42,831 nucleotides of DNA from an uncultured Gammaproteobacteria bacterium (GTDB lineage: Bacteria > Patescibacteriota > Patescibacteriia > Patescibacteriales > UBA12465): contig CAYGOK010000003.1 of the NCBI GenBank assembly GCA_964351585.1, positions 10,043-52,873 of the forward strand, in the 5' to 3' direction. Below, piece by piece: positions 1 to 40,192 of the stretch. The notes beneath the pieces are model-generated. The model did not search any database and had not been told where the DNA came from. It saw nothing but the letters and a program-made list of their open reading frames with translations. Made by a program: the position numbers and the translations under genes. Numbering within the stretch: position 1 is the first letter of the stretch; each line of letters begins with the position of its first letter.

Positions 1-629
1 CTCACTTCTTCAATCTTGCCAATTCTTTTTAAATCACGAACAATCATCGCCTTTAGGCTGCCGCAAAATAATCCAGCTGGGCAATCGCTATCAACTACGC
101 AATTCTTAGGTTCTTTAAGTAAACAAGTACCATTAGTTAGCGAGCAGGCCTGATTAGAAGGACATTCGGAGTCCTGTGCACACTTGGTTACCGAGATAGA
201 GCAGGTTGATACCTGGGAAGATAAATTATCATTAAACTTCCAATGAGAAATAATCTGTCCCAAAATATCGGTAGTCATGCTGCTAGAATCTTGATTATAT
301 GAAATCAGATAAATATTGGTATAGATTACTTTTTGAGCCGGGTCAACGTGGGCGGCATTTATATAAACTGTACGTCCATCGCGTAATGCTTCATAGCCAT
401 CAACAGTTAGGGCCTGAGGTGCTCCAGAAAAACCCTGGCTCTGATACCAGCGGTAAACACTGTAGTGGTTGGGATTAGGAATGATACGAATACCAATCGC
501 ATCACTCTCTGTTGTGGGCTGTGCAGCAACGGGATTGTCAGAAGAAAGCAAAACCCCGAAAAGCAAAAGGGCGGTAACAGCCACTAGGCCGACTAACCCT
601 TTCAATTTATTAAATTCTTGATTGACCAT
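1..629 (-). CDS. Secreted Cys-containing protein, N-terminal part only (3' end runs off the left edge); third gene of the surface-protein cluster
   Basis: Not in the ORF track because it is open-ended. My translation from ATG at 629-627: MVNQEFNKLKGLVGLVAVTALLLFGVLLSSDNPVAAQPTTESD...CSISVTKCAQDSECPSNQACSLTNGTCLLKEPKNCVVDSDCPAGLFCGS... The frame stays open to position 1. It has a hydrophobic signal/anchor followed by CxxxxC-type Cys spacing. It starts 10 nt downstream of the stop of the 1928-aa gene. Confidence 0.6.
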   Translation of the reverse strand, partial: MVNQEFNKLKGLVGLVAVTALLLFGVLLSSDNPVAAQPTTESDAIGIRIIPNPNHYSVYRWYQSQGFSGAPQALTVDGYEALRDGRTVYINAAHVDPAQKVIYTNIYLISYNQDSSSMTTDILGQIISHWKFNDNLSSQVSTCSISVTKCAQDSECPSNQACSLTNGTCLLKEPKNCVVDSDCPAGLFCGSLKAMIVRDLKRIGKIEEV

Positions 630-639
630 AAAGAAAAAA

Positions 640-3600
640 TTATCTAACCACACAAGCGCCTGCGACACAAACTTGATTATCGGCACAGGTTATCTTGGAA
701 ATTGTTATTTCATTTGATTTTGCACTTTCATTGCCGGCTGCATCTAAGGCGGATAAAGCAAAGTAATTATCGCCACTACTTAATTGACCAGCGGATAAAG
801 TTAAAGCAGTTGCCCCCTGTTCAGAGTCAAAGGATTCTCCGTATAAAGTGCTACGCGTGCCTCGATAGAGACGAAACGAGGAAGCACTAGTATCGGTGCT
901 CGTCCAATTAAAGCGATAGGAATCACATTTGTTGATTGAAGTTAAGTTAGCCGGAGCTAAAGGCGCCGTTTGATCTGTCGGCGTGGCTGACTTAGTATTA
1001 CTCAACGTACTTTCCGTACGATTGTTAGAAATAACGGAAACACGGAAAGAATATGGTTGATTATTTTTTAAGCCAGAAATAGTGGCAGCGCAAGCAAATT
1101 CTGATCCACCCCAATCACAAGCATCGGCTGCTGTAAACTCTCTAGAAACAGTCGCTGATTTTCCAGTCTCACCATAATAAATTTTAAAACCAACTGACTG
1201 AGCGCTACTGGATTTCCATTCAACTAAAATCTCTCCTCCTGTTTTTTTATCAGTGGCCGCCGTTACTTCTCCGGCTGGCAAAACTGCCTCTCTAAAGAAA
1301 TATGATTCTTTAAGAACGTTCCAAACACAGATGCCATCAGGTAAGCCGTCGCCGTTACGATCATCTCCACAAGAAGAGCCAGCGGCTGAACAAACTGAGC
1401 CATCAGAGCTACAAGCTAAATTAGTGCTCTGTCCTCTAATAACAGCTCTATCAATAATTGCCGGCAAATCATCAAATGTGCCAGGCTGGCCGGCGTCGCG
1501 ACAATAATAAAACTTATAACTAAAGTCCGTGCAAGGCCCACCTAAAGCACCGGTACAGGTATCTGTCCACGGAAACCAGGTGCCATCAATATTAACTGGT
1601 GGCCAAGGATTATTACAAACAAAGACATAGATATTGCTCGCACTAGAAGAATCGTCACCCGTAGAAAAAGCATTGGCACAATTAGCTGTACACTTATCAT
1701 CAGCGCAGACACAGCTTGGACTATAATCTGGATTACTAAGGAAGCGCTCCATGCTAACAGTCGCTGTTAATTTTGTTTCTCCATCAGTAACGCCATTTGC
1801 CGCCGCAACAAAAGCACGATTCATTTCTAAACCATTAACATTAGCAATGGTCACGACTGCGGTATCAAGGACGTTGAAATTCCAGTCCCAGAAATATCCA
1901 GTTACCGGATGCAAAACTTGGCTATCCGCACTAAGCGCCCAAGCAGCAAATACCTTGTCTTTATCTTGAATGGTGTCAAAAGTCTTGTCTAATGGGTTAT
2001 CATCTTTTTCAGCCAAGCTATTATCGGTAGTCTTAAATAAATAAGATACAGGCAACAATCTTACTTGACTGATAGCGCAGACACCAGAATTTTCAGCCTT
2101 ATCAGAAAGTGTTTTAAACTGAATGATATGAGAATTTTTATAATATGTAGTATTAAAAGCTAAGCTTGCCCCCTCAGTTCCGTCCAGGCCCGTTCCATTA
2201 AAGCCAATTCCCTCAATATTAGTTACCCCCAATTGACTATTCAGTTCTTCGTCACCCTTAACAACTAGAAAATAATTGGTATCTGGAGACATTAACTGCC
2301 TAGGCATGACATTAGCCACTGTTCTTTGGCCAGCATGACTACCAGAAACAGCAACCGGAGAAGCACAGTATAGCTTACTAGGGTCCGGAGGGACGGCAAT
2401 CGCGCTTTCATTTTTTGGAAAAAATACGGCCACCACCTGATTCACTGACCTTCTAGCGCTCGAAAATACCCTGGCTAACCAGCCCTCTTTTTTAACTTTA
2501 CCTTCAAAATCATAGGCCATGGTTCCTGCCGGACAAACGCCAGTACCATAATCCATTTCTCTAAGTAGTAAAATATTGGAATTGAAAGTAGCAACATCCA
2601 TTAACTGATCAAAGGTAATATTTAATACTGCATTGCGACAAACATTACTAGCGCCATTAATCGGCAGAGTTTCTATTACATTCGGTCTGGCCTGACAGCA
2701 AGTATCAAAGCCGCAGCCCAATGTTTCGGCATTACCACAATCGCCATCATTCTTACAGCCACAACATAATCCGCGACTAGCACCAGAACAACTTCCTTGA
2801 TCAGCCTTACAATACAAATATGGCGCCTCGGCAGTTTTACAAGCATTAACATCAGTTGGGCTACAGCAACAAGTGCCACAATCAGAAATACCTGTAGCCG
2901 TTGCTCCGCTATCCGTCATGCAGGCCATGTTTGGAAAATTACAAATACTAAAATCACAAGTTGCCGTCATATAAGGAGAGGAGCAATTTTTTCCAGCCCC
3001 ACCATAATTGCCACCGCAACGATCTTGGCAAGTAGTTAAGCTATTGAATGTTCCGGTTGTTCTTGGGATAGCCTCGCAAGTTGCCGGATCTCCTGGAGGC
3101 GTAGCTGCTGGATCACCACAATTATAATAGGCGCAATAACCAGCATCAGCACCAGACGCAATCTGTTCTCCTCCTTGGCACTTAGAAGATGTTTGATTAA
3201 AACAACAAGAAGGAGCGGCTGAACATTCATCTTTATTACCATCAAACAAAGAACAGAAATCAACTCCCTCAGCACAGCCGGTTGTGCAAGTGTCTGTGTT
3301 TTTAAAATAACCAAGCTTAACCGGAGTTGAAGAGGCGCAAGTCGCCGGGTCAGTCGCTGAACAGTTAAAATAACCGCAATAGCCATAATCTGGACTAGCT
3401 GGATCAGAAGAAATTTCTGTGCCCGAACCACCACGACAAATATCATCATCTAAAGATGGGGTTCGTCTAGAATCAAAGCAACAAGCTGCGCTATGATCAG
3501 CACAAGTTGACTGCGTTTTTAAACCAGTACAATCTGAACAAACGCCCTGCGGATTTTCAGCGGTAATGCTGCAATATTGTCCGCCTCGACCAGCACAATT

Positions 3601-6426
3601 ACAGGCAGCGTCATGCTCAGCTTGAGTAGTGCCGACATTAGCACAACCAGAACATTGCCCTAAACCAGCGCCATCATCAGCCTGATCATTACCACAGGTA
3701 CCGGCACATTCTAAAGGAGCACAACAATCTTGAGCACTATTACCAATACGACAACAGCAATCACAACTCGGCGCGTCATAAGCAATACAACGATCAGCGG
3801 CCGCTAAATCAGGATTATCTTCGCAAACTGAACCAGCCGGACAAACCGACCTAGAAACACAACGACCATCAGTTACTACCCTTTCACAAACCAATCCATC
3901 AGTACACAAACTACAAGTTGAATTTTTATCAACACAAATATTATTTACGCCTCTCTCCCAATTATCTGGGCAAGATGTTTGAGTAGAGAATTGCCAGTTG
4001 CCCTCCTGATTACAAGCTACTGTAACCTCAATACTCTGACCACCTAAAGCAAAGGTTTTCTTTTCCGATAAACTACACAAACCATCGGCCCCAGATTTTA
4101 CGCATTTATTAATAGAGGCATCGTAAAAACAAGCTGATGGAAAAGCATTACAGCCGACTACTGAGGCACAAGAATAATCGCAACTACCTACTACTTTTTT
4201 ATTATTTCCTGCATAAGGAGAACAAACGCCGGTTGTATTTGGACAGAATGAACCAACCTGACATGCGCCAGCGTAGGCCGCTAAAGTAGCACAGCTCTCA
4301 GTTGGATCAACTACATCTTTTTTGGCATAGCCAGTACTAAAATTCCATTCAAAAACTGAAGTAGGAATATCAATTAAACAGTCACTTAAACTAGCAACGC
4401 AGCGTCCTTTCTTATAAGTATTAGCTGGACAACAAACTTGTCCGCCTTCACAATTTTCATTAGTAGTACAACTACCAACTTCAAAATTAAGCTCATTGCC
4501 CCATTCGCCATTCTTTACAACTTTAACCGGACCAGTGATAGCCCCTTCAGAAACAGCTGTTGTAATTATATCGGCACCATTTTCTTGACTGATTAAACCT
4601 GAGGTATTTTTATTAACATTAAATTGAACTAAACCATTTTGTCCAACTGACCCAAAGTATTCTCCATAAAGCTTAACGGGCGTGGACACCGCGCCCTGCT
4701 TCGGTTCAATCTTGCACAAGCTAGTCTTTAGAGATAAGGCACTATCAACATTAAAAGAATTGGGGTTAAGCTGGCTAGTATCAATTGTTCCGCTGGCCAA
4801 TTCTACACGAATATAATGATAACCATTAACAGCTGAGGCTGGGACCTTAACAATAATTTGGTTATCACTCCAGACTGAGCTAGCGCAAACTGGTGGAAAT
4901 GCGTAATCAGCTTCAGCGCTTCCAAAGTAAACTTTAGAGTTGCCACGCGCACCACCAAAGCCACTACCAATAATAGTGACGTATTGTCCGGTGCGGCCAC
5001 TATTAGGAGAAAAAGAAACAATAAAGGGCCCATCTCTAGGATCAGACTCTTTGTTAAAATATAGATAATTACTTTTTTCCTGATTACCGCCTAAAGTACT
5101 AATAACAAAACTAGTGGCTTCACCAGATCTTACATTAGGAACACCGGCTGTGCCCGATAGACCGCTGGGATGGCTAAAACCAGAGTTAAGGGCCTGAACA
5201 TTAGTCTTATAACTACCAAAATAAGCTTTACCAGAATACAAACTAATTCCTTGATAAGTCGCTATGGCTCCTAAGCCACCCTGGCTAGGAGTTAATTTAC
5301 ATAAGCCCGGCCTAACTATACTATTAGAAACAAAATCTGGCACCCTGGGACCGTATTCATCATTAGTAGCATCTTCTTTTCCGTCTTGACGAGAAATTTT
5401 AATAGCTCCATTACTGGCGCCTGAAGGAATGGCAATAATAATTTGTTTGTCACTCCAAGAATCAATACAAATTGGATTAATCTCCGAAGGACTGCGTCCT
5501 ATCTGATTTCCACCTAAGAAAACAACCTGACTTAAAACAGGATCATATTCTCCAAAACCCTGACCGAAAATTGTTAAAAAATTATCAGCAGCGCCATTAG
5601 GAGTGTTTTGATTACAGACCGTATTACAACCAGCATCAGTCTGGCAAGATTTATTAATATCTTCCTCACAAAAACCACCTACCGGGCTGATCCCGGTAAT
5701 AACTGGCGGACCAGAGCAGGTGCAAGTATCGGCATCACAAGTCAAAAACTCAGCGCACAAACTATTGTTCGCATCACAAGTCGGCGTACTCTCATCAGCA
5801 TCACAAGAATCACCAGCGGCACCACGCGGCTGACAAGTACAATCAGTCGCACAATAATCCTGAGGCGCACAAATATTATCATCTGCCTGACAACCACCTA
5901 AAATAGAATTGGAATCACAATATTTTTCTGCCGGGTAGCTCGTACAATCAGAGCCGACACAGCCTCCCCAGGAACCAGCTGTACACAACATTGCACCATT
6001 ACAACCACAGGGCCGAGTTGAGCCCTCAATACAGCCACTATCGCCGCCCGTACCACGAGTAGCGTCACTTAATCTATCTAAAACAAAAGAAGCAATTGCC
6101 CAGGACGATAAAATAATTCCTAAACCAATAACTGCGCTAACTAACAATTTTTTAGCTTTAGAAATTTTTTCTTCCTCTCCGGCTGACGTCATCCACAGAA
6201 ATCCAGCATAGATAATCAAGCCCAAGGCGATGACACCCAGTAATCCCAAAGCAACATTAATAATACGAGCAACAATAGCACGTGGATCACTAGTTGATAA
6301 TGAGCCTCCTAGACCAGACGAAACTTCATCAGTACCGAAATTTTGCGCAAAAACTAATCGAAAAGCAAACACTCCGACAAGGATTACGGCAAAAGAAGCT
6401 AGTTGTTTAAATATTCTCTTAGACAC
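640..6426 (-). CDS. Giant (1928 aa) cysteine-rich cell-surface protein: VirB2/TrbC-like pilin-type N-terminal anchor, about 4 IPT/TIG-like domains, a roughly 590-aa hyper-Cys region, an Ig-like (Big_5/SbsA-type) domain and 2 C-terminal FN3 domains
   Basis: Uninterrupted 5.8-kb ORF with an apparent GTG start at 6426. N-terminus: signal peptide (..RLVFAQ|N), then DPRAIVARIINVALGLLGVIALGLIIYAGFLWMTSAGEEEKISKAKKLLVSAVIGLGIILSSWAIASFVLDRL (two TM helices around a charged loop). IPT-like segments, e.g. GPFIVSFSPNSGRTGQYVTIIGSGFGG...IIVKVP. FN3-like segments, e.g. GEILVEWKSS..FKIYYGE..YSFRVSV and PANLTS..YRFNWTS..FRLYRG..YFALSALDAAGNES. About 126 Cys by hand count. Confidence 0.85.
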   Translation of the reverse strand: MSKRIFKQLASFAVILVGVFAFRLVFAQNFGTDEVSSGLGGSLSTSDPRAIVARIINVALGLLGVIALGLIIYAGFLWMTSAGEEEKISKAKKLLVSAVIGLGIILSSWAIASFVLDRLSDATRGTGGDSGCIEGSTRPCGCNGAMLCTAGSWGGCVGSDCTSYPAEKYCDSNSILGGCQADDNICAPQDYCATDCTCQPRGAAGDSCDADESTPTCDANNSLCAEFLTCDADTCTCSGPPVITGISPVGGFCEEDINKSCQTDAGCNTVCNQNTPNGAADNFLTIFGQGFGEYDPVLSQVVFLGGNQIGRSPSEINPICIDSWSDKQIIIAIPSGASNGAIKISRQDGKEDATNDEYGPRVPDFVSNSIVRPGLCKLTPSQGGLGAIATYQGISLYSGKAYFGSYKTNVQALNSGFSHPSGLSGTAGVPNVRSGEATSFVISTLGGNQEKSNYLYFNKESDPRDGPFIVSFSPNSGRTGQYVTIIGSGFGGARGNSKVYFGSAEADYAFPPVCASSVWSDNQIIVKVPASAVNGYHYIRVELASGTIDTSQLNPNSFNVDSALSLKTSLCKIEPKQGAVSTPVKLYGEYFGSVGQNGLVQFNVNKNTSGLISQENGADIITTAVSEGAITGPVKVVKNGEWGNELNFEVGSCTTNENCEGGQVCCPANTYKKGRCVASLSDCLIDIPTSVFEWNFSTGYAKKDVVDPTESCATLAAYAGACQVGSFCPNTTGVCSPYAGNNKKVVGSCDYSCASVVGCNAFPSACFYDASINKCVKSGADGLCSLSEKKTFALGGQSIEVTVACNQEGNWQFSTQTSCPDNWERGVNNICVDKNSTCSLCTDGLVCERVVTDGRCVSRSVCPAGSVCEDNPDLAAADRCIAYDAPSCDCCCRIGNSAQDCCAPLECAGTCGNDQADDGAGLGQCSGCANVGTTQAEHDAACNCAGRGGQYCSITAENPQGVCSDCTGLKTQSTCADHSAACCFDSRRTPSLDDDICRGGSGTEISSDPASPDYGYCGYFNCSATDPATCASSTPVKLGYFKNTDTCTTGCAEGVDFCSLFDGNKDECSAAPSCCFNQTSSKCQGGEQIASGADAGYCAYYNCGDPAATPPGDPATCEAIPRTTGTFNSLTTCQDRCGGNYGGAGKNCSSPYMTATCDFSICNFPNMACMTDSGATATGISDCGTCCCSPTDVNACKTAEAPYLYCKADQGSCSGASRGLCCGCKNDGDCGNAETLGCGFDTCCQARPNVIETLPINGASNVCRNAVLNITFDQLMDVATFNSNILLLREMDYGTGVCPAGTMAYDFEGKVKKEGWLARVFSSARRSVNQVVAVFFPKNESAIAVPPDPSKLYCASPVAVSGSHAGQRTVANVMPRQLMSPDTNYFLVVKGDEELNSQLGVTNIEGIGFNGTGLDGTEGASLAFNTTYYKNSHIIQFKTLSDKAENSGVCAISQVRLLPVSYLFKTTDNSLAEKDDNPLDKTFDTIQDKDKVFAAWALSADSQVLHPVTGYFWDWNFNVLDTAVVTIANVNGLEMNRAFVAAANGVTDGETKLTATVSMERFLSNPDYSPSCVCADDKCTANCANAFSTGDDSSSASNIYVFVCNNPWPPVNIDGTWFPWTDTCTGALGGPCTDFSYKFYYCRDAGQPGTFDDLPAIIDRAVIRGQSTNLACSSDGSVCSAAGSSCGDDRNGDGLPDGICVWNVLKESYFFREAVLPAGEVTAATDKKTGGEILVEWKSSSAQSVGFKIYYGETGKSATVSREFTAADACDWGGSEFACAATISGLKNNQPYSFRVSVISNNRTESTLSNTKSATPTDQTAPLAPANLTSINKCDSYRFNWTSTDTSASSFRLYRGTRSTLYGESFDSEQGATALTLSAGQLSSGDNYFALSALDAAGNESAKSNEITISKITCADNQVCVAGACVVR
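2931..3483 (-). repeat. Two tandem, diverged Cys-rich repeat units of about 80-92 aa inside the giant gene
   Basis: Unit 1 starts at CCFDS (3483) and unit 2 at CCFNQ (3207). Shared skeleton: CCF..C.GG...GYC.Y(F/Y)NC...DPATC...G.F...TC...C. Unit boundaries are approximate. Confidence 0.6.
6070..6426 (-). repeat. Copy 1 of the paralogous N-terminal signal peptide plus two-TM pilin-like module (see 8752-9099)
   Basis: Residues 1-119 of the 1928-aa protein align without gaps from DPRAI to LDRL with the 887-aa protein. Roughly 70% aa identity by eye, with clear nucleotide similarity (e.g. tatgc.gg.tt..tgtggatgac). Confidence 0.8.
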
Positions 6427-6435
6427 AAGTTTATA

Positions 6436-9099
6436 TTATTGGCAGTTGCCATTTTCATCTAAATTATTAGAAGGAGATCCAAAACAACAAGATGGATTTT
6501 CCCAAGTAGCCTCACAGCTTGGACCTGAACTAGGTTTAAAACAATTTTGATAAACGTCTTTAACACCAGAGCCGGCCTGAGAAATATAAGAAAGTGATTC
6601 TGAAAATAAAGAATGTTTAATCTGGGCTACTGTTAAGTCAGTCACACCGTCTAAAGGAGAAACGTCCTTGTCCTCAGAGGTTATCCAATAACCCAGGGGA
6701 GAGGCAGCAGCACTCTTCAAATTAATGAATTTATGCTCCGTAGCAGTCTGACCATTATTCAAAATTTTGCTACCAGACCTAAGTGTACTAGACATCATTA
6801 AGGTATTAAAAGTAATTTCCACCGGATCAGTTAAAGCGGTAATGTCTGTTTGTCCATTGTTTGGCGTAATAGCGGTAATGCGTGGCGAAGATAGCTCTTT
6901 TTGGTCATTAACAAAGAAGGAGAAGCGGTAACTATCTTTATTATCAACTACACCATTATTCTCATTGAAATAAGAGATTGGCCCATCAGCCGCAGTATCA
7001 CGATTACCATCTAAAGAATTGAAGGCGGTATCAGTAATGCCACTCATCGTTGCAATGTTGGCCAGTGGATAGTTTCTCTGTCCTGCGTCTTGGCAGGTAC
7101 GATAACCGAGCGGGCTCATAACACAAGATCTATAAGGACTAAAGGCGGCGCAATCTTGATCGCTCGCACAAGTTTTTAAATCTGCAGCTTTAATTTCTAG
7201 AGCTAAGTTACTATTTGGCGGCAAACAATAAACCTTTTCACCGCAACCATTAATTCCACATTCATTATCAGAAATAAATTCAACTGTTTTGTAACCATTA
7301 GAAATCATAAACTGTCCATTTACATAACTGCCGACGCAGGAACCGCCGTCACATTTATAGGAAAGGCATTCGGAATTGATAGCACAAGCAGTGCCAGCTG
7401 ATTTGCCGCCATTAGCATTTACTAAACGAATATAAGAAGACACGTCGCTAGCGGAACCAGAAAGCGTAGCTGGGTTCATGGCCTCATTAAAGGTCACCTT
7501 GATGGCCGCGTTCATTGGCACATCTTTCTTATCATTAATAACATAGGTAATTCGTTGATCAGCGCCACCAGAAAACTGGGTTAGACCAAGAGCGCTACTA
7601 TTACTAGTGCTGAGGGCTAATCCATTAGCAGCGCTTCCGGCTACTTTAGCCGTCAATGAAACACGACTACCGGTACGAGTTACGTTCACATCGGGGTGGC
7701 CGCTTAACTTAGCCTGGATATCAGCCGCTTGATTATCCGCATTGCAGGTACCAGTCCGAACGATAATATTATTATTTTCACCAGTAGCAGCAAAGACATA
7801 TTTAACATTGCCAACCGTTAGAGTGTCGGCCAATTGTTCAGGGGTAATTTCTATTTCCCAGGAATTACCAGCAGCATGACTATCGGCTTTTAAGCTAAAA
7901 TATCCATCAAAAGTTACTCTATGGTCGGAAGTAAAATCAGCCACGCCCAATAAGGCATTAGTGTTACGATTAAATAGTTGGGCACGATTAGGCTCGTCCG
8001 CTGGGACGGAAACCATGAAACGATTTATTACGCCATGATAATCTAATGTTACCTCGGCTCCCGGGGTAACTCGATTTAACACAGCTGGTATATATACTCT
8101 TGGACAACCATTAACAAATATTTCTGCAGTTGCGTTAGCTGAGACAGTGCTCACCCCAATTTGATCTTGAAGATTATCAGGGCGAGGAAATATAGAACGA
8201 GCAACCACTTGTGGCGGGGTTAAATCTAAACGAGAACCAACTTCAAAACCCCAAACAAGCTCACTTGCGCTACAGGTTCTAAACATAGAGGAGCCATCTG
8301 CCTTCTTTAAATCTGAAGTTATTTTTACGGCATAATCAGTATTAGCCTCTGCTGAACCAAGATAGCTTAAAGGAGAAAATATCAGTGTTCTCTTATCGGC
8401 TGATATAGCTACAGCGACATCGGTAACATTAGAATTTGGGTTTGGACAGTTAACACCACAGGCATCATTTAATTCCTGCTTATATATTCTAATTGTCTTA
8501 GGATTAATTAAAGAGCAGGCGCCATTATCACAAGCGCAAGGACTGCCACCAGCATCCACACAAGCAGAAGCGGCATCAATTTCTTCTTTAAAAGTAACAA
8601 TTATAGAAGTATTTCTAGGTACATCACGCTGATTGCTTTCTGGGTAAACAGTTTGAACTGAGCAGGAGCCAATAGCCCCTAAACCAGCACTAAAATTATT
8701 TCCTGAATAAGCTCCAGGTTGATTAACGCCGTTACCAGAGATAGCACTCATTAATCTATCTAACAAGAAGGTGGTAATTGCCCAAGAAGATAAAATAATC
8801 ACTAAACCAATAACTGCGTTCTTAAGAATATTTTTTGCATTTCTAATTTTCTCCTCTTCGCCGCCAGAAGTCATCCACAAAAAGCCGGCATAGATTATTA
8901 AGCCAAGAGTAACGACACCAAGTAAGCTTAAGGCGACCTGAATAATACGCCCAATAATAGCTCGTGGGTCACTAGAAGACAAAGCGATTGTGCTTTCAAT
9001 CGGATCTAAACCGAAATCTTGCGCTAGAGAGATTTTAGCAGTCAGCAAAACTACTGATGCCAAAAAAAAGCCGAAAATTATCTTGAATCTTTTCAACAT
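6436..9099 (-). CDS. Large (887 aa) secreted surface protein: VirB2/TrbC-like pilin-type N-terminal anchor followed by several Ig-like (Big_5/SbsA-type) domains and Cys-knot-like segments
   Basis: ATG at 9099. N-terminus: MLKRFKIIFGFFLASVVLLTAKISLAQ|D...DPRAIIGRIIQVALSLLGVVTLGLIIYAGFLWMTSGGEEEKIRNAKNILKNAVIGLVIILSSWAITTFLLDRL. Repeated pattern 'P..g..dVp.n..I.vtF.e.m...t', e.g. VYPESNQRDVPRNTSIIVTFKEEID, NDKKDVPMNAAIKVTFNEAMNPATL and ITPNNGQTDITALTDPVEITFNTLM. About 30 Cys. The stop lies 9 nt before the next gene. Confidence 0.85.
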   Translation of the reverse strand: MLKRFKIIFGFFLASVVLLTAKISLAQDFGLDPIESTIALSSSDPRAIIGRIIQVALSLLGVVTLGLIIYAGFLWMTSGGEEEKIRNAKNILKNAVIGLVIILSSWAITTFLLDRLMSAISGNGVNQPGAYSGNNFSAGLGAIGSCSVQTVYPESNQRDVPRNTSIIVTFKEEIDAASACVDAGGSPCACDNGACSLINPKTIRIYKQELNDACGVNCPNPNSNVTDVAVAISADKRTLIFSPLSYLGSAEANTDYAVKITSDLKKADGSSMFRTCSASELVWGFEVGSRLDLTPPQVVARSIFPRPDNLQDQIGVSTVSANATAEIFVNGCPRVYIPAVLNRVTPGAEVTLDYHGVINRFMVSVPADEPNRAQLFNRNTNALLGVADFTSDHRVTFDGYFSLKADSHAAGNSWEIEITPEQLADTLTVGNVKYVFAATGENNNIIVRTGTCNADNQAADIQAKLSGHPDVNVTRTGSRVSLTAKVAGSAANGLALSTSNSSALGLTQFSGGADQRITYVINDKKDVPMNAAIKVTFNEAMNPATLSGSASDVSSYIRLVNANGGKSAGTACAINSECLSYKCDGGSCVGSYVNGQFMISNGYKTVEFISDNECGINGCGEKVYCLPPNSNLALEIKAADLKTCASDQDCAAFSPYRSCVMSPLGYRTCQDAGQRNYPLANIATMSGITDTAFNSLDGNRDTAADGPISYFNENNGVVDNKDSYRFSFFVNDQKELSSPRITAITPNNGQTDITALTDPVEITFNTLMMSSTLRSGSKILNNGQTATEHKFINLKSAAASPLGYWITSEDKDVSPLDGVTDLTVAQIKHSLFSESLSYISQAGSGVKDVYQNCFKPSSGPSCEATWENPSCCFGSPSNNLDENGNCQ
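8752..9099 (-). repeat. Copy 2 of the paralogous N-terminal pilin-like module
   Basis: Residues 1-116 of the 887-aa protein. See 6070-6426. Confidence 0.8.
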
Positions 9100-36584: not shown

Positions 36585-39500
36585 ATGAATCCAGTTGATT
36601 CAATAGAAAATCTGATAAACCCTACAGGCGACGAACAAAGCGTCGCCGGTATTTTTGCTAAAAAGCAAAGGGAGATAAAACAGAAAGAAGCAGAAAGACA
36701 AACTCAGCGCGATGCCTCTGATGTTGCTTTAGAATATATAAATCTATTCGGATTTCCCATTAGCCCCGAGGCACTAGGTCTAATCAGTGAAGAAAGAGCC
36801 AAAGAACTGAAGGCGGTCTGTTTTTTTTATGATGGACACAATTTACGTCTTGCCTGCTTAGCTCCTACTGAGGAAGTCTTAGCCGAACTAAAAAACTTAT
36901 CAGACAAGCACTTTGCTAACGCTAAGCTATATTTAATTTCTGAAAATAGCTTAAGTTACGCTCTAGACGCCTATCGCGCTGTTCCAAAAGTAAAAAAATA
37001 TGATAGCGGAGTAGAAATTAGTAAAGTCCAGCTACAAAAATTTAAAGACGACATTACTAGCTACAAAAGCTTAAATGATAAGATTAACGAAGTTAATATT
37101 ACCGATGTAATCACTTTAATGCTCGCAACCGCGATTAAGGTGGGAGCAAGTGATATCCATATTGAAGCCGAGGAAAGAGGCGTGGTAATTCGCATCCGTA
37201 TCGATGGCGTTCTCCAGGAAGCAGCAGTTATTGCCCGTGATAAGTGGCAAAAAATTATTTCTCGTCTAAAAATTCTTTCTAAGGTAAAGCTTAACATCGA
37301 GAACAAACCGCAAGACGGTCGCTATACAATTTTTCTTCAGGATCATAAAATCGATGTCCGCTGTTCATTTTTACCGACCGCCTTTGGCGAGAGCGTAGTC
37401 ATGCGCTTACTTGATTCTCATACTTCCGCTCTTAATTTAAGCAAGCTTGGAATACGAGCAGAAGTTATGCCGATTTTGCAAAAAGAAATTTCAAAGCCAA
37501 ACGGTTTAATTTTAACAACTGGCCCAACCGGTAGCGGTAAAACTACTACGCTATACTCTGTCTTAAGCCAGCTCAACAAACCTGGTAACAAGATTATCAC
37601 TTTAGAAGAGCCCATTGAATATCAACTTCCTGGCATCAATCAAAGCCAAGTCGACGCTAAGCATGGTTTTAATTTTTCCGAAGGCTTGCGTTCTATTTTA
37701 CGACAAGATCCAAACATCGTTATGGTTGGAGAAATTCGTGATTTAGAAACAGCCGAGATTGCTATTCAAGCTGCTCTAACAGGACACTTAGTGCTGTCCA
37801 CTTTACACACCAACGATGCTTCTGGTGTTATTCCTCGCATGATTGATATTGGAGTTAAGCCTTATTTTCTAGCCCCAGCGGTTAATGCTGTCATTGGTCA
37901 GCGTTTAGTTAGGCAATTATGCACTCACTGTCGACAAGATAAAACGATTACCCCAGATGAAGAAGAATTAATTTACAAGATTCTGGCTGTTATTTCTCCT
38001 AAGGCCGGCATTAACGTACCATCAGCGCTTCCTAAAATTTTTCAATCAGGTGCTGGCTGTGAACACTGTAACTTCACCGGCTACAGTGGTCGCTCTGGTA
38101 TTTTTGAAATTTTTACAATTAGCGATAATATCCGCCAATTAACGATTGATAATGCCCCTTCGTTTAAAATTTTACAACAGGCTATCGAAAACGGCATGAT
38201 AACTATGCTACAAGATGGCGTCTTAAAAGTTTTAGAAGGTGAAACCAGTCTTGAAGAAATTTATCGTGTCATTGGCAATTTCGACTATGTAAATGAGCTC
38301 TATGATATTGTTATTTCTCAAACTATTGGCCGCGGTATTAGAATAAAAGAAGAGGAGATGAATGAAATTACTGAAATCGGCAAAGACATTTTAAATATCG
38401 GTGACCGCGCTAATCAAATCCCGAGCTCAAAATTAGTTGCCCTCACTATGGGATTAGCTGTTTTACGTGATGCTGGCGATGTTCACATTGAACCAACTGA
38501 AAGTGATGTAAAAATCCGCTTCCGTATCGATGGTATTATGCATGATGTTTTCTCAGTACCTAAAACTAGTTACTTGCCATTACTCTCAGAAATAAAAATT
38601 TTGGCCGGTACGCCAACTAACGTAAAGAAGGCAACTTTTGATGGTCGTTTTAGTATTTATTTACCACCAAATAGAAAAATCGATTGTCGTTTATCAATTA
38701 TTGCCGGCGGTTATGGCGAAACAATCGTTGTCCGCTTACTCTCTTCCTCGGCTGCTAGCTTAGAGCTTCCAAAGTTAGGCGTTTCTTCGGTTGCCCTTGA
38801 ATCAATGGGTCGCGCCATGAAGAAAAATCGTGGCATTATTATTACTACTGGTCCAACCGGTAGCGGTAAAACCACGACGCTCTACAGTATGCTCAACCAA
38901 TTAAATCATCCTGATGTAAAAATTATTACTGTCGAAGATCCAATTGAATATCAGCTCGCTGGCGTTATGCAAACCCAAATCGATGAAGCAAACGGCTACA
39001 CTTTTGCCTCAGCGATGCGTTCCTTATTACGTCAAAACCCTAATATCATGATGATTGGTGAAATCCGTGATAATGAAACCGCTAAGATTGCGATTGAGGC
39101 CGCGATGACTGGTCATTTAGTATTATCCACTATTCATGCCAATTCTGCTGCAGGAGCGATTTTCCGTTTTGCTGGTCTTGGTGTAGAAAGACAAATGCTT
39201 GCTAACTCAATGGAGTTTGCTATTGGCCAGCGCCTAGCTAGACGTCTCTGTCCTCATTGTAAACAGACTACTGAAATATCGTCTGAGAATTTAACTCGTG
39301 TTAAAGAAATTCTAAGCGGCATTAAAAACCCAGCAGTTTCAATTCCAGAGCAAATGACATTTTATAAGAGTGTCGGTTGTGAGCAGTGCGGACAAATTGG
39401 CTACAAAGGTAGAATCGGTTTATATGAAACTATTGAGTTAACACCTAACATCCGCAAACTAATGCAATCGGAAGGCATTACCGAATATGAAATTGAACAA

Positions 39501-39599
39501 ACTGCTATAAACGAAGGCATGGTAACAATGCTACAAGATGGTATTTTAAAAGCCTTGGCCGGAGAGACTTCTCTAGAAGAAATTTTCCGTGTCTCTTAA
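36585..39599 (+). CDS. Tandem (duplicated) GspE/PilB-family secretion ATPase: N-terminal T2SSE_N-like domain plus two complete N2-CTD ATPase modules in one 1004-aa chain
   Basis: Module 1 (about aa 172-562): Walker A GPTGSGKTTT (37521-37544 encode GPTGSGKT), Asp box ITLEEPIEY, Walker B IVMVGEIRD, His box GHLVLSTLHTNDA, and Cys pairs CTHC...CEHC. Module 2 (about aa 612-1004): GPTGSGKTTT (38850-38873 encode GPTGSGKT), ITVEDPIEY, IMMIGEIRD, GHLVLSTIHANSA and CPHC...CEQC. The two are joined by a linker of about 50 aa with no stop or frameshift. Confidence 0.85.
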   Translation: MNPVDSIENLINPTGDEQSVAGIFAKKQREIKQKEAERQTQRDASDVALEYINLFGFPISPEALGLISEERAKELKAVCFFYDGHNLRLACLAPTEEVLAELKNLSDKHFANAKLYLISENSLSYALDAYRAVPKVKKYDSGVEISKVQLQKFKDDITSYKSLNDKINEVNITDVITLMLATAIKVGASDIHIEAEERGVVIRIRIDGVLQEAAVIARDKWQKIISRLKILSKVKLNIENKPQDGRYTIFLQDHKIDVRCSFLPTAFGESVVMRLLDSHTSALNLSKLGIRAEVMPILQKEISKPNGLILTTGPTGSGKTTTLYSVLSQLNKPGNKIITLEEPIEYQLPGINQSQVDAKHGFNFSEGLRSILRQDPNIVMVGEIRDLETAEIAIQAALTGHLVLSTLHTNDASGVIPRMIDIGVKPYFLAPAVNAVIGQRLVRQLCTHCRQDKTITPDEEELIYKILAVISPKAGINVPSALPKIFQSGAGCEHCNFTGYSGRSGIFEIFTISDNIRQLTIDNAPSFKILQQAIENGMITMLQDGVLKVLEGETSLEEIYRVIGNFDYVNELYDIVISQTIGRGIRIKEEEMNEITEIGKDILNIGDRANQIPSSKLVALTMGLAVLRDAGDVHIEPTESDVKIRFRIDGIMHDVFSVPKTSYLPLLSEIKILAGTPTNVKKATFDGRFSIYLPPNRKIDCRLSIIAGGYGETIVVRLLSSSAASLELPKLGVSSVALESMGRAMKKNRGIIITTGPTGSGKTTTLYSMLNQLNHPDVKIITVEDPIEYQLAGVMQTQIDEANGYTFASAMRSLLRQNPNIMMIGEIRDNETAKIAIEAAMTGHLVLSTIHANSAAGAIFRFAGLGVERQMLANSMEFAIGQRLARRLCPHCKQTTEISSENLTRVKEILSGIKNPAVSIPEQMTFYKSVGCEQCGQIGYKGRIGLYETIELTPNIRKLMQSEGITEYEIEQTAINEGMVTMLQDGILKALAGETSLEEIFRVS

Positions 39600-39616: not shown

Positions 39617-40192
39617 ATGATTGATAAGAAATTTCTAGAAAACCTAAAAGAAGATTACGCTGCTAACGAAAAAGAACGTCGCCAAATTATTAGTGCCTCT
39701 AACGGAATTTTATTTGAAGCGAAAAAAATTATTTTTGCCATTCAGCGCCATGATTTAAAAACAGCAGCTGAAAAATTAACGACTCTCGAAACTGAATTTA
39801 GAAGTCTAGAGAAACGCTTCGGGCTTGACCGTTTGCGCAAAGAAGGCGCATACAAAGCGGCAGCTGAAGAATATCTTGAAGGCAAAACTCTGTTTTTGGT
39901 AATTAAGAAAAAACCAATTACTAAGATTGATGATATATCTTTCGACTATGAAGCCTATTTGGGTGGCATCTGTGATTTAATTGGCGAGCTGGTGCGATAT
40001 GCTACCAATCAAGCAGCTAAAGGAAAATTTTCTGAAGTTGCCAAAATTAAAAAAGCGGCTGATGATATCATGGTGCAATTAGTAGATTTTGACATGACCG
40101 GCTATCTGCGCACAAAATACGACCAAGCACGTGGTCACTTGAGAAAACTCGAACAAATGGCTTACGAAATACGCTTGAAAACTGGAAAATAA
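39617..40192 (+). CDS. Translin-family-like protein (tentative)
   Basis: All-helical 191-aa protein. YLGGICDLIGELVRYA resembles the conserved translin 'Y..g..D..GEL.R' segment. Recognised by eye only. Confidence 0.5.
   Translation: MIDKKFLENLKEDYAANEKERRQIISASNGILFEAKKIIFAIQRHDLKTAAEKLTTLETEFRSLEKRFGLDRLRKEGAYKAAAEEYLEGKTLFLVIKKKPITKIDDISFDYEAYLGGICDLIGELVRYATNQAAKGKFSEVAKIKKAADDIMVQLVDFDMTGYLRTKYDQARGHLRKLEQMAYEIRLKTGK

What the first reader, a model, noticed from the sequence alone, without database searches (positions are those of the whole stretch)
2695..4470. Hyper-cysteine core of about 590 aa (about 13% Cys) in the giant protein
From GSCTTNENC to DTCCQARP I count about 78 of the protein's roughly 126 cysteines. 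They include CC, CCC and CxC clusters (DCCCRIG, DCCAPLEC, TCCCSP, LCCGCKNDGDC). The spacing recalls EGF, granulin or knottin-like mini-domains rather than any bacterial domain I recognise.

Such density implies many extracellular disulfides or metal clusters. Small CPR-type genomes are not known for elaborate oxidative-folding machinery, and none is visible in this window.
Basis: seen in the sequence. Interest (0 to 1): 0.65.

Follow-up and report, generated by a model that had tools for sequence, protein, structure and literature searches.

The report
Disulfide-rich stalk of giant Patescibacteria surface protein
The cysteine-packed 598-residue stretch is real and sits in the outward-facing part of a giant surface protein found in hundreds of tiny groundwater bacteria (Patescibacteria); its 78 cysteines are almost perfectly conserved, most likely forming about 39 disulfide bridges in domains that match no described family.

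Summary
The ORF at 640..6426 (-) encodes 1928 aa with 126 Cys, and aa 651-1248 (window 2683..4476) hold 78 Cys (13.0%).

It is not an artefact. Independent metagenome assemblies reproduce the region without indels, and 23 of 24 strain substitutions are synonymous in this frame. At least 245 species-level genomes, mostly Ca. Falkowbacteria/Patescibacteria, encode a relative.

In 62 orthologous cores (34-86% identity), 53 have exactly 78 Cys and 58 have an even number. 68 Cys columns are invariant, and rare losses mostly come in pairs (C1196 with C1221, three times). Everything after aa 117 follows a signal peptide and a VirB2-like two-helix anchor, so it should lie outside the cell. I therefore read the cysteines as structural disulfides, not metal clusters.

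The core consists of separable modules (A1, A2, B, C, D, D, E) that are recombined in paralogues. AlphaFold2 models aa ~707-1134 confidently as beta-rich (module B: pLDDT 91). Neither Pfam, NCBIfam, PDB sequence searches nor Foldseek finds a match, so EGF, granulin and similar families are not supported.

The most likely role is a rigid stalk or adhesive region of a surface protein. The claim that CPR lack oxidative-folding machinery is contradicted by published MdbA-like/VKOR families. None lies in this window.

The parts
640..6426 (-). Giant ORF of 1928 aa with 126 Cys. NCBI labels its orthologues 'IPT/TIG domain-containing protein' or 'hypothetical'.
   Evidence: The identical protein, P0153, is seen on 3 public contigs.
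6346..6426 (-). Sec-type signal peptide, aa 1-27 (...RLVFA|QNFG).
   Evidence: Read directly from the sequence. The cleavage site is inferred.
6082..6273 (-). VirB2/TrbC-like two-helix hairpin (T4SS_pilin, aa 52-115), taken to be the membrane anchor. It places everything downstream outside the cell.
   Evidence: PF18895 scores 35.2 bits against a cut-off of 26.6. NF045849 scores 38.7 against 40. The topology is inferred from the known topology of F-type and VirB2 pilins.
5716..6033 (-). N-proximal Cys-rich linker, aa 132-237, with 18 Cys. It includes two tandem 6-Cys units (aa 170-198 and 208-237). Four more Cys (253-271) sit in the first TIG-like repeat.
   Evidence: These Cys are conserved in 9-11 of 11 orthologues.
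4477..5712 (-). IPT/TIG-like beta-sandwich repeats, aa 239-650.
   Evidence: PF01833 matches aa 467-552 at E=6e-13. Internal repeats. PDB profile hits to CGTase domain D.
4192..4476 (-). Core module A, aa 651-745, with 10 Cys. A1 is a 6-Cys knot (aa 651-690). A2 is aa 691-745. The conserved linear motif IPTSVFEWNFSTG lies at the A1/A2 boundary.
   Evidence: pLDDT is 83-87 for A1 and below 50 for aa 685-706.
3772..4191 (-). Core module B, aa 746-885, with 16 Cys. It is an all-beta domain that is absent from some paralogues.
   Evidence: The AlphaFold2 model of aa 735-890 has pLDDT 91.0 and pTM 0.79. It has no PDB neighbour (best E=0.66, TM<0.2). B is missing in P0002.
3517..3771 (-). Core module C, aa 886-970, with 15 Cys. 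Its motifs include SCDCCCRIG...DCCAPLxCxGTCG...CSGCA..G.T....DAACNC.
   Evidence: pLDDT is about 88-94.
2977..3516 (-). Core modules D1 (aa 971-1060) and D2 (aa 1061-1150), a tandem duplication with 10 Cys each (C-x6-CC-x7/13-C-x14/19-C-x4-C-x7/13-C-x15/16-C-x3-C-x6/10-C).
   Evidence: The self-alignment score is 87, against a maximum of 62 for shuffled controls. Module HMMs.
2683..2976 (-). Core module E, aa 1151-1248, with 17 Cys (CGTCCC...RGLCCGC..D.DCG...GCG.DTCC.ARP). In this protein and the orthologues examined it is followed directly by the Big_5 domain.
   Evidence: The model is of low to moderate confidence here (pLDDT 42-71). C1196 and C1221 are lost together in 3 genomes.
2503..2691 (-). 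Big_5 bacterial Ig-like domain, aa 1246-1308.
   Evidence: PF13205 scores 26.4 bits against a cut-off of 23.6.
1267..2502 (-). Conserved region of unknown fold, aa 1309-1720. It contains the family signature YVFxCxNPWPP...YKFYYCRDAG..DDLPAI...NVLKESYFFRE.
   Evidence: this signature was one of the two patterns used in the genome scan. No Pfam or PDB match.
697..1248 (-). Two fibronectin-III-like domains, aa 1727-1802 and ~1825-1910.
   Evidence: PF00041 scores 23.3 bits, just under the cut-off of 25. PDB profile hits to titin, fibronectin and RPTP-delta.
6436..9099 (-). Upstream paralogue in the same operon, 887 aa, with a VirB2-like anchor, a Big_5 domain and 26 Cys. Its stop lies 9 nt before the giant gene's start.
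   Evidence: It is adjacent to the giant gene in 62 of 80 related loci.
1..629 (-). The 5' part of the downstream operon gene, which runs off the window. The full gene encodes 1298 aa with 80 Cys (6.2%), an N-terminal hydrophobic (possible TM) segment, and no Pfam domain above threshold.
   Evidence: L081:15798-19694. It is adjacent to the giant gene in 66 of 80 related loci.

Best explanation
The hyper-cysteine core is the central extracellular part of a conserved giant surface protein of Patescibacteria (probably Ca. Falkowbacteria). After Sec export and signal-peptide cleavage, a VirB2-like two-helix hairpin (aa 52-115) holds the protein in the cytoplasmic membrane, and the remaining ~1800 residues project outward. 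These comprise a Cys-rich linker, IPT/TIG repeats, the 598-aa core, a Big_5 domain, an unknown conserved region and two FN3-like domains.

The core is a string of small, mostly beta-structured modules (A1, A2, B, C, D, D, E). Their 78 cysteines are oxidised to about 39 structural disulfides. These make a protease- and shear-resistant rigid stalk, and possibly binding surfaces. With the two co-transcribed neighbouring surface proteins, it probably mediates contact or attachment to another cell or surface.

Shown here: the sequence, its conservation, its modularity, the even and fixed Cys number, mostly paired Cys loss, the confident beta-rich models, and the absence of any known family. Inferred: the membrane topology, the disulfide chemistry, the stalk or adhesin role, and oxidation by an MdbA-like/VKOR system encoded elsewhere in the genome.
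For: Counts: 78 of 598 residues are Cys, against 1.8% in the other ORFs of the window.

Reality of the gene: there are no indels in independent assemblies, and 23 of 24 strain substitutions are synonymous. 155 clusters at 50% identity match the core, nearly all of them proteins of 1600-3800 aa with more than 100 Cys. 245 species genomes encode a relative.

Constraint: in 11 orthologues at 38-52% identity, Cys columns are 99% identical while other residues are 38% identical. In 62 cores, 53 have exactly 78 Cys, 58 have an even number and 68 Cys columns are invariant. Cysteines are lost in pairs: C1196+C1221 in L028, L043 and L064 and also in P0002, and a net four Cys (two pairs' worth) in L058.

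Location: a signal peptide is followed by PF18895. The flanking domains are typical extracellular Ig-like folds (TIG, Big_5, fn3).

Structure: the AlphaFold2 core model has mean pLDDT 77.9, and aa ~707-1134 are mostly above 85. Module B alone reaches pLDDT 91 and pTM 0.79. Both are beta-rich.

Modularity: the modules are recombined in paralogues (C-E, B-C-E, E alone, A1-D-D).

Operon: the gene sits in a conserved three-gene cassette of large Cys-rich exported proteins.

Evolution: the protein evolves faster (median 47% identity) than the syntenic housekeeping genes (59-77%), as is usual for surface proteins.

Literature: large Cys-rich extracellular proteins proposed to act in attachment have been described in CPR Peribacteria (PMC4736985). 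An MdbA-like oxidoreductase family with adjacent VKOR is enriched in CPR (10.1101/335083). VirB2-like genes often occur in arrays in Patescibacteria (PMC12102498).
Against: There is no direct evidence for disulfides.

Module E, the densest CC/CCC/CxC region, is only weakly modelled (pLDDT 42-71).

By my boundaries, modules C and E carry odd Cys numbers (15 and 17). This would require an inter-module bridge or different boundaries.

No thiol oxidase was found in the window or in 1.8 Mb of related neighbourhoods. The rest of the genome could not be searched.

The adhesin or stalk role rests on architecture and analogy only. No ligand-binding domain was identified, and no expression data were found (only DNA runs).

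The fixed single-copy, syntenic nature of the gene is less typical of variable host-specific adhesins.
Confidence: 0.6

Rival explanations
1. The VirB2-like N-terminus is a true pilin that polymerises. On this reading the giant protein is a (minor or tip) subunit of a type-IV-secretion-related pilus, and the Cys-rich core is displayed along or at the tip of that filament. It would not be a protein simply anchored in the membrane.
For: The PF18895/NF045849 match. Two VirB2-like genes lie in tandem. VirB2-like arrays are common in Patescibacteria, and a previously reported pilin array in Ca. Southlakia epibionticum strain ML1 is essential (PMC12102498).
Against: No VirB4, VirB6 or other T4SS gene lies in the 42.8-kb window. 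A C-terminal load of 1800 aa on every subunit is hard to reconcile with helical pilin packing (inference). This rival changes the anchoring, not the nature of the core.
Confidence: 0.15
2. The cysteines bind metals (metallothionein-like thiolate clusters, Zn ribbons or Fe-S centres). The core would then act in extracellular metal sequestration or redox chemistry.
For: CC, CCC and CxC clusters are dense, especially in modules C and E. Module E is poorly modelled without ligands.
Against: The Cys number is even and fixed, and cysteines are lost mostly in pairs. Cys makes up only 13% of the core, and 39 aromatic residues are present. There are only 2 His in the core. Beta-rich models are confident without metals. 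The predicted location is extracellular. No metallothionein or ferredoxin family matches.
Confidence: 0.07
3. The core is a polyprotein precursor. Proteolysis would release individual disulfide-rich peptides (defensin-, knottin- or granulin-like effectors) that act on a host cell.
For: The organisation is modular, with low-confidence linkers at aa 685-706 and 1135-1164. Modules behave as independent units in paralogues.
Against: The modules are unlike one another, apart from D1 and D2. Their order is conserved in the 105 proteins that carry the canonical order A2-B-C-D-D-E, 38 of them with A1 detected. The linker at 685-706 is itself a strongly conserved motif, not a generic cleavage site. No protease is encoded in the operon.
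Confidence: 0.05
4. The region is an artefact: a mis-assembly, a frameshifted pseudogene or a chance ORF.
For: None found.
Against: Independent assemblies contain no indels. 23 of 24 substitutions are synonymous. Intact orthologous ORFs occur in all 80 fetched loci.
Confidence: 0.01

Closest known systems
Large cysteine-rich extracellular proteins of CPR Peribacteria (Anantharaman et al. 2016, PMC4736985)
   Same: Both come from CPR bacteria with small genomes. The proteins are very large (mean 1655 aa there, 1928 aa here) and carry signal peptides. Cys content is similar (7.2 +/- 2.4% there, 6.5% here). The genes are clustered. Attachment or rigidity was proposed as the role there too.
   Different: The lineage differs (Falkowbacteria-like versus Peregrinibacteria). 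Those proteins showed weak similarity to Myxococcus Cys-rich repeats and FG-GAP, whereas this core matches no family. The VirB2-like anchor and the fixed 78-Cys framework were not described there. Homology between the two sets was not tested.
VirB2/TrbC-like pilins and pilin arrays of Patescibacteria (PMC12102498)
   Same: The N-terminal domain matches PF18895, and two such genes lie in tandem.
   Different: Described VirB2-like proteins are small pilins. Here the hairpin carries an extracellular extension of about 1800 aa, and no T4SS genes are nearby in the window.
Plexin, Met and integrin ectodomains (PSI domains alternating with IPT/TIG domains)
   Same: Small disulfide-rich modules are interleaved with IPT/TIG beta-sandwiches in a long extracellular stalk. 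This comparison rests on my own knowledge of those architectures.
   Different: No PSI (PF01437) or other eukaryotic Cys-rich domain match was found, even at E<=1, in 62 family members. The resemblance is an analogy, not membership.
Cys-rich surface coats of parasitic protists (for example Giardia variant-specific surface proteins, about 11-12% Cys)
   Same: Cys density in a membrane-anchored surface protein of a host-dependent microbe is similar. Those coats are thought to confer protease resistance. This comparison rests on my own knowledge.
   Different: VSPs are built on CXXC repeats, are highly variable multigene families and are reported to bind metals. This protein is a single-copy, syntenic orthologue with an invariant Cys framework and few CXXC motifs. 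No Pfam match to VSP was found.
Granulin, EGF and knottin mini-domains
   Same: They are small disulfide-stabilised units. Sub-module A1 (C-x5-C-x5-CC-x9-C-x6-C) resembles the first half of the granulin spacing.
   Different: No HMM match was found and there is no Foldseek neighbour. Modules B to E are 85-140 aa with 10-17 Cys, much larger than those mini-domains.

Membership tests
EGF-like domains (Pfam EGF clan) | A match to an EGF HMM, with 6 Cys in about 35-40 aa | tested here: not met
   No Pfam hit for the core at E<=1, nor for any of 62 orthologous cores.
Granulin (PF00396) | A 12-Cys motif with four CC pairs (C-x5-6-C-x5-CC-x8-CC-x6-CC-x5-CC-x4-C-x5-6-C) | tested here: not met
   Only A1 resembles the first half of the motif, with single Cys where CC pairs are expected. 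There is no HMM hit.
Knottin / inhibitor cystine knot | Three disulfides in a knotted I-IV, II-V, III-VI topology | not testable with these tools
   Model coordinates are not returned, so connectivity is unknown. Foldseek found no knottin-like neighbour.
Metallothionein-like metal-thiolate proteins | About 25-33% Cys, essentially no aromatic residues, and no stable fold without metal | tested here: not met
   The core has 13% Cys and 39 aromatic residues (Y, F, W). Beta-rich models are confident. Cys losses are mostly paired. Metal content itself could not be tested.
Myxococcus cysteine-rich repeat (TIGR02232) | A match to the NCBIfam/TIGRFAM model | tested here: not met
   The NCBIfam scan of the core and of the whole protein gave no such hit at E<=1.
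PSI domain (PF01437), plexin-like PSI-IPT stalk | A PSI HMM match next to IPT/TIG domains | tested here: not met
   IPT/TIG is present, but there is no PSI hit.
T4SS_pilin / VirB2-like (PF18895), N-terminal anchor only | An HMM match above the gathering score, plus a signal peptide and two hydrophobic helices | tested here: met
   35.2 bits against a cut-off of 26.6, at aa 52-115. NF045849 scores 38.7, just under its cut-off of 40. The helices are visible in the sequence.
T4SS_pilin / VirB2-like (PF18895), N-terminal anchor only | Genomic association with T4SS genes (VirB4, VirB6) and assembly into a pilus | tested here: not met
   No T4SS component lies in the 42.8-kb window. Pilus assembly cannot be tested with these tools.
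IPT/TIG, Big_5 and fn3 flanking domains | Pfam matches above the gathering score | tested here: met
   TIG scores 49.0 against 20.9, and Big_5 scores 26.4 against 23.6. fn3 scores 23.3 against 25, slightly below threshold, but is supported by PDB profile hits to titin and fibronectin.
Large Cys-rich extracellular proteins of CPR (descriptive class, PMC4736985) | More than 1000 aa, a signal peptide, about 5-10% Cys, predicted extracellular, from a CPR genome | tested here: met
   The protein has 1928 aa, 6.5% Cys and a signal peptide. Relatives are found in Falkowbacteria/Patescibacteria MAGs. Sequence homology to the Peribacteria proteins was not tested.

The most novel reading that the evidence does not exclude
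The core defines five or six previously undescribed disulfide-rich extracellular folds. Module B, modelled at pLDDT 91, has no PDB neighbour. Together the modules form an invariant stalk of about 39 disulfides (about 63 in the whole protein) on a VirB2-anchored giant protein, encoded in a conserved three-gene cassette. That cassette would be the host-contact apparatus of Falkowbacteria-like episymbionts. It would also mean that these ~0.9-Mb-genome organisms, many of which are thought (from general knowledge, not tested here) to be anaerobic and unable to make quinones, sustain very heavy oxidative protein folding. They might do so with an MdbA/VKOR system fed by scavenged quinones, which would be a testable metabolic dependency on the host.
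Probability: 0.2. Interest if true: 0.7.

Novelty: new variant of a known kind. Interest (0 to 1): 0.45.

Why it matters
Patescibacteria/CPR make up a large share of bacterial diversity, and those cultivated so far live attached to other cells. The molecules that make that contact are mostly unknown.

This family is conserved, single-copy and syntenic. With its two neighbours it takes up about 12 kb of a genome of roughly 0.9 Mb. It contains domains absent from Pfam and the PDB. That makes it a concrete candidate for structural and localisation studies of the CPR cell surface.

The invariant 78-Cys framework also sharpens an open question: how do organisms with minimal redox metabolism oxidise dozens of disulfides per exported protein? 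Even so, Cys-rich giant surface proteins in CPR are already on record, so this extends a known theme and does not overturn it.

Tried and rejected
1. Known families. Pfam and NCBIfam scans of the core, and a Pfam scan of 62 orthologous cores at E<=1, gave only scattered chance hits.

2. Solved structures by sequence. phmmer and a 62-sequence profile against PDB sequences gave nothing for the core. The full-length profile hit only the TIG and fn3 parts.

3. Fold comparison. Foldseek of the 611-aa model against PDB and BFVD, and of module B against PDB, gave a best E of 0.07-0.7 and TM<0.2. The recurring rotavirus VP8* hits have rmsd 15-23 angstroms, so I rejected them as noise.

4. Periodicity. 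blastp self-comparison printed nothing in my script. Tile-wise Smith-Waterman with shuffled controls found only the D1/D2 duplication and the TIG repeats.

5. Oxidative-folding genes. I looked for CxxC, TM or thioredoxin-like ORFs in the window and in 1.8 Mb of related loci. I found only a prepilin-peptidase-like protein, a pilin and unknowns, and no Dsb/VKOR. One search was an empty script.

6. Module similarity to the two operon neighbours. Module HMMs gave only insignificant matches.

7. First word-indexed homologue search. It returned only 3 fragments. The family appeared only with the exhaustive search and with the profile.

8. Expression. Only DNA metagenome runs hold the sequence, and no RNA evidence was obtained.

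9. Literature. Searches for this specific family (Patescibacteria or Falkowbacteria with 'cysteine') found no description of it.
Full report
**Observation.** The window's first large ORF (640..6426, minus strand, GTG start) encodes 1928 aa with 126 Cys. The stretch from GSCTTNENC to DTCCQARP is aa 651-1248, or window 2683..4476. The stated coordinates (2695-4470) fall 6-12 nt inside the true limits. The other ORFs of the window average 1.8% Cys, so the enrichment is far beyond chance (binomial P about 8e-42). A second Cys-rich stretch lies at aa 132-271 (22 Cys).

Periodicity is weak. Tile-wise local alignment with shuffled controls finds one clear internal duplication in the core, aa ~975-1058 against ~1068-1148, each with 10 Cys in the same spacing. 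It also finds the IPT/TIG repeats upstream.

**Is it translated as read?** Yes.
- Contigs from four runs of one study and one groundwater run of another study cover 2500-4700 with no insertions or deletions.
- Of the 24 substitutions seen in related strains, 23 are third-position synonymous changes in the minus-strand frame. Five of these fall within Cys codons.
- All 80 related loci fetched from species-representative genomes carry an intact orthologous giant ORF.

**Context.** The window is a typical Patescibacteria/CPR chromosome segment. It encodes RelA/SpoT, HisRS, signal peptidase I, QueA, RuvB, an AddA-like helicase-nuclease, GyrA, tRNA synthetases and a PilB-like ATPase.

Named relatives of the giant gene are mostly Ca. 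Falkowbacteria or 'Patescibacteria group' MAGs, including two complete chromosomes of about 0.9-1.0 Mb (taxonomy). Many record titles reading 'uncultured Gammaproteobacteria' look like placeholder labels.

The gene is the middle of a tight three-gene cassette:
- Upstream is an 887-aa paralogue with the same VirB2-like N-terminus, a Big_5 domain and 26 Cys. Its stop lies 9 nt before the giant gene's start.
- Downstream, 10 nt after the giant gene's stop, is a 1298-aa protein with 80 Cys (6.2%) and no Pfam domain above threshold.
- The upstream gene is adjacent in 62 of 80 related loci and the downstream gene in 66 of 80. The housekeeping synteny is also kept.

**Architecture.** The order along the protein is:
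1. a signal peptide (aa 1-27);
2. a T4SS_pilin/VirB2-like two-helix hairpin (PF18895, aa 52-115, above the gathering score);
3. a Cys-rich linker;
4. IPT/TIG repeats (PF01833);
5. the core;
6. a Big_5 domain (PF13205);
7. a strongly conserved region of unknown fold (aa ~1309-1720);
8. two FN3-like domains.

From the known topology of F-type and VirB2 pilins, both ends of the hairpin face outward. Everything after aa ~117 is therefore predicted to be extracytoplasmic. This is an inference.

**The family.** The word-indexed search with the core alone found only three fragments. The exhaustive HMMER search found 155 clusters at 50% identity (91 of them at E<=1e-30), nearly all proteins of 1600-3800 aa with more than 100 Cys. 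A profile search found at least 462 proteins at E<=1e-20. Where they are named at all, they are called 'IPT/TIG domain-containing protein' or 'hypothetical'. At least 245 species-level genomes encode a relative.

**Constraint on the cysteines.**
- In 11 full-length orthologues at 38-52% identity, every one of the 78 core Cys is conserved in at least 9 of the 11. Column identity is 99% for Cys and 38% for other residues.
- In 62 cores from different species (34-86% identity), 53 have exactly 78 Cys, 58 have an even number, and 68 Cys columns are invariant.
- Several apparent losses are shifts of 2-4 residues: position 712 to 715 in 8 genomes, and 1051 to 1055 and 880 to 882 in one genome each. 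True losses come mostly in pairs. C1196 and C1221 are lost together in three genomes and in the paralogue P0002, and L058 has a net loss of four Cys, two pairs' worth.
- The whole protein evolves faster (median 47% identity) than its syntenic housekeeping neighbours (59-77%), as is usual for surface proteins, yet the Cys framework stays frozen.

Together with the predicted extracellular location, this is the signature of structural disulfides: about 39 in the core and about 63 in the whole protein. Metal-thiolate clusters are much less likely. The core has 13% Cys, 39 aromatic residues and only 2 His, and it is modelled confidently without ligands.

**Modules and structure.** Alignment with paralogues shows that the core is modular. 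I divided it into A1 (651-690, 6 Cys), A2 (691-745, 4), B (746-885, 16), C (886-970, 15), D1 and D2 (971-1060 and 1061-1150, 10 each) and E (1151-1248, 17).

HMMs of these modules find the canonical order A2-B-C-D-D-E in 105 proteins, 38 of them with A1 also detected. More distant giants have recombined sets such as C-E, B-C-E, E alone and A1-D-D.

AlphaFold2 with a 50-sequence alignment gives mean pLDDT 77.9 for aa 645-1255. Residues ~707-1134 are mostly above 85-90 and consist of short beta-hairpins and sheets. Confidence is low at aa 685-706, at 1135-1164 and across most of module E. Module B modelled alone reaches pLDDT 91.0 and pTM 0.79 and is all-beta.

Coordinates are not returned by the tool, so I could not read the disulfide connectivity. 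By my boundaries, C and E have odd Cys counts. This suggests either an inter-module bridge or slightly different boundaries, and it remains unresolved.

**Comparison with known families.**
- Pfam and NCBIfam give no hit for the core.
- None of 62 orthologous cores matches any Cys-rich family at E<=1.
- PDB sequence searches with one sequence and with a profile find nothing.
- Foldseek of both models against PDB, and of the core model against BFVD, gives no match with E<0.001. The best TM-scores are below 0.2. The repeated rotavirus VP8* hits have rmsd 15-23 angstroms and I reject them.

EGF, granulin, PSI, Myxococcus Cys-rich repeat and metallothionein membership were each tested and not met. 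Only A1's spacing recalls half a granulin motif.

The nearest described thing is descriptive, not homologous: the large (about 1655 aa), signal-peptide-bearing proteins with about 7% Cys reported in CPR Peribacteria and proposed to give rigidity or attachment (PMC4736985).

The N-terminal anchor ties the protein to the VirB2-like pilin genes that are widespread, and often arrayed, in Patescibacteria (PMC12102498). However, no T4SS gene lies in this window.

**Oxidative folding.** I also found none in 1.8 Mb of related gene neighbourhoods.

The general premise is contradicted by the literature, though. A membrane-anchored MdbA-like thiol-disulfide oxidoreductase family is enriched in CPR, its CxxC motif is kept in 92% of members, and VKOR is its most frequent neighbour (bioRxiv 10.1101/335083).

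**Mechanism.** My preferred reading has an overall confidence of about 0.6. I put roughly 0.85 on 'extracellular, disulfide-stapled structural modules' and about 0.45 on 'adhesion or host contact'.

The protein is exported by Sec and held in the membrane by the VirB2-like hairpin. It then projects a chain of about 15 small domains. The core forms a rigid, protease-resistant middle section with about 39 disulfides, and it may also present binding surfaces. The two co-transcribed Cys-rich neighbours probably act with it.

The rivals are:
- display on a T4SS-type pilus instead of simple membrane anchoring (0.15);
- metal binding (0.07);
- a polyprotein of releasable Cys-rich peptides (0.05);
- an artefact (0.01 or less).

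**Novelty and verdict.** The finding is real, and the feature is strongly conserved and unannotated. Its modules are absent from Pfam and have no detectable PDB relatives. The general kind, giant Cys-rich surface proteins in CPR, is already on record, and no mechanism beyond structural disulfides is demonstrated. I rate it a new variant of a known kind, with interest 0.45.

Noticed in passing
window 6436-9099 (-): An 887-aa paralogue lies immediately upstream, its stop 9 nt before the giant gene's start. It has the same signal peptide and VirB2-like hairpin, a Big_5 domain and 26 Cys. It is adjacent to the giant gene in 62 of 80 related loci.
   Followed up: partly
window 1-629 (-), continued in L081:15798-19694: The downstream operon gene runs off the window. 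The full protein is 1298 aa with 80 Cys (6.2%) and an N-terminal hydrophobic (possible TM) segment, and it has no Pfam domain above threshold. By eye its C-terminal half carries CGDG...E.CD and C..C..G.Y-type motifs reminiscent of Myxococcus Cys-rich and ephrin-receptor-like repeats, but Pfam did not confirm this. It is adjacent in 66 of 80 loci. Two small TSP3_bac (calcium-binding repeat) proteins follow.
   Followed up: partly
window 4330-4371 (-), aa 686-699: The motif IPTSVFEWNFSTG is among the most conserved non-Cys stretches of the core (S690 and F696 are invariant; P688, E693, W694 and T698 are at least 90% conserved). Yet it lies in the segment that AlphaFold2 models with pLDDT below 50. 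It resembles the terminal strand of Big_5-type domains (...W.F.T) and could be a strand that docks onto a partner.
   Followed up: no
window 1282-1659 (-), aa ~1590-1715: This is the most strongly conserved signature of the whole family (YVFxCxNPWPP ... W.PW.D ... YKFYYCRDAG..DDLPAI ... NVLKESYFFRE). It lies in a region with no Pfam or PDB match and may be the functional head of the protein.
   Followed up: no
window 36585-39599 (+): A 1004-aa PilB-type protein with an MshEN domain and two T2SSE/P-loop regions (around aa 300 and aa 750). It appears to be a tandem-duplicated, fused type IV pilus ATPase.
   Followed up: no
window 39617-40192 (+): A 191-aa Translin-family protein (PF01997, E=3e-17). 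From my own knowledge this family is better known from eukaryotes and archaea; I did not check its distribution.
   Followed up: no
window 1-8000: The giant gene region has a higher G+C content (0.42-0.435) than the rest of the window (0.35-0.39). This is probably an effect of its Gly/Ala/Cys/Ser-rich composition and not of foreign origin, since the gene is syntenic in related genomes.
   Followed up: partly
loci L001-L080 (record titles): Many TPA_asm MAG records that carry this Patescibacteria-type cassette are titled 'uncultured Gammaproteobacteria bacterium'. Single records are labelled Balneolaceae or Bacillota. These look like placeholder or mis-binned labels.
   Followed up: no
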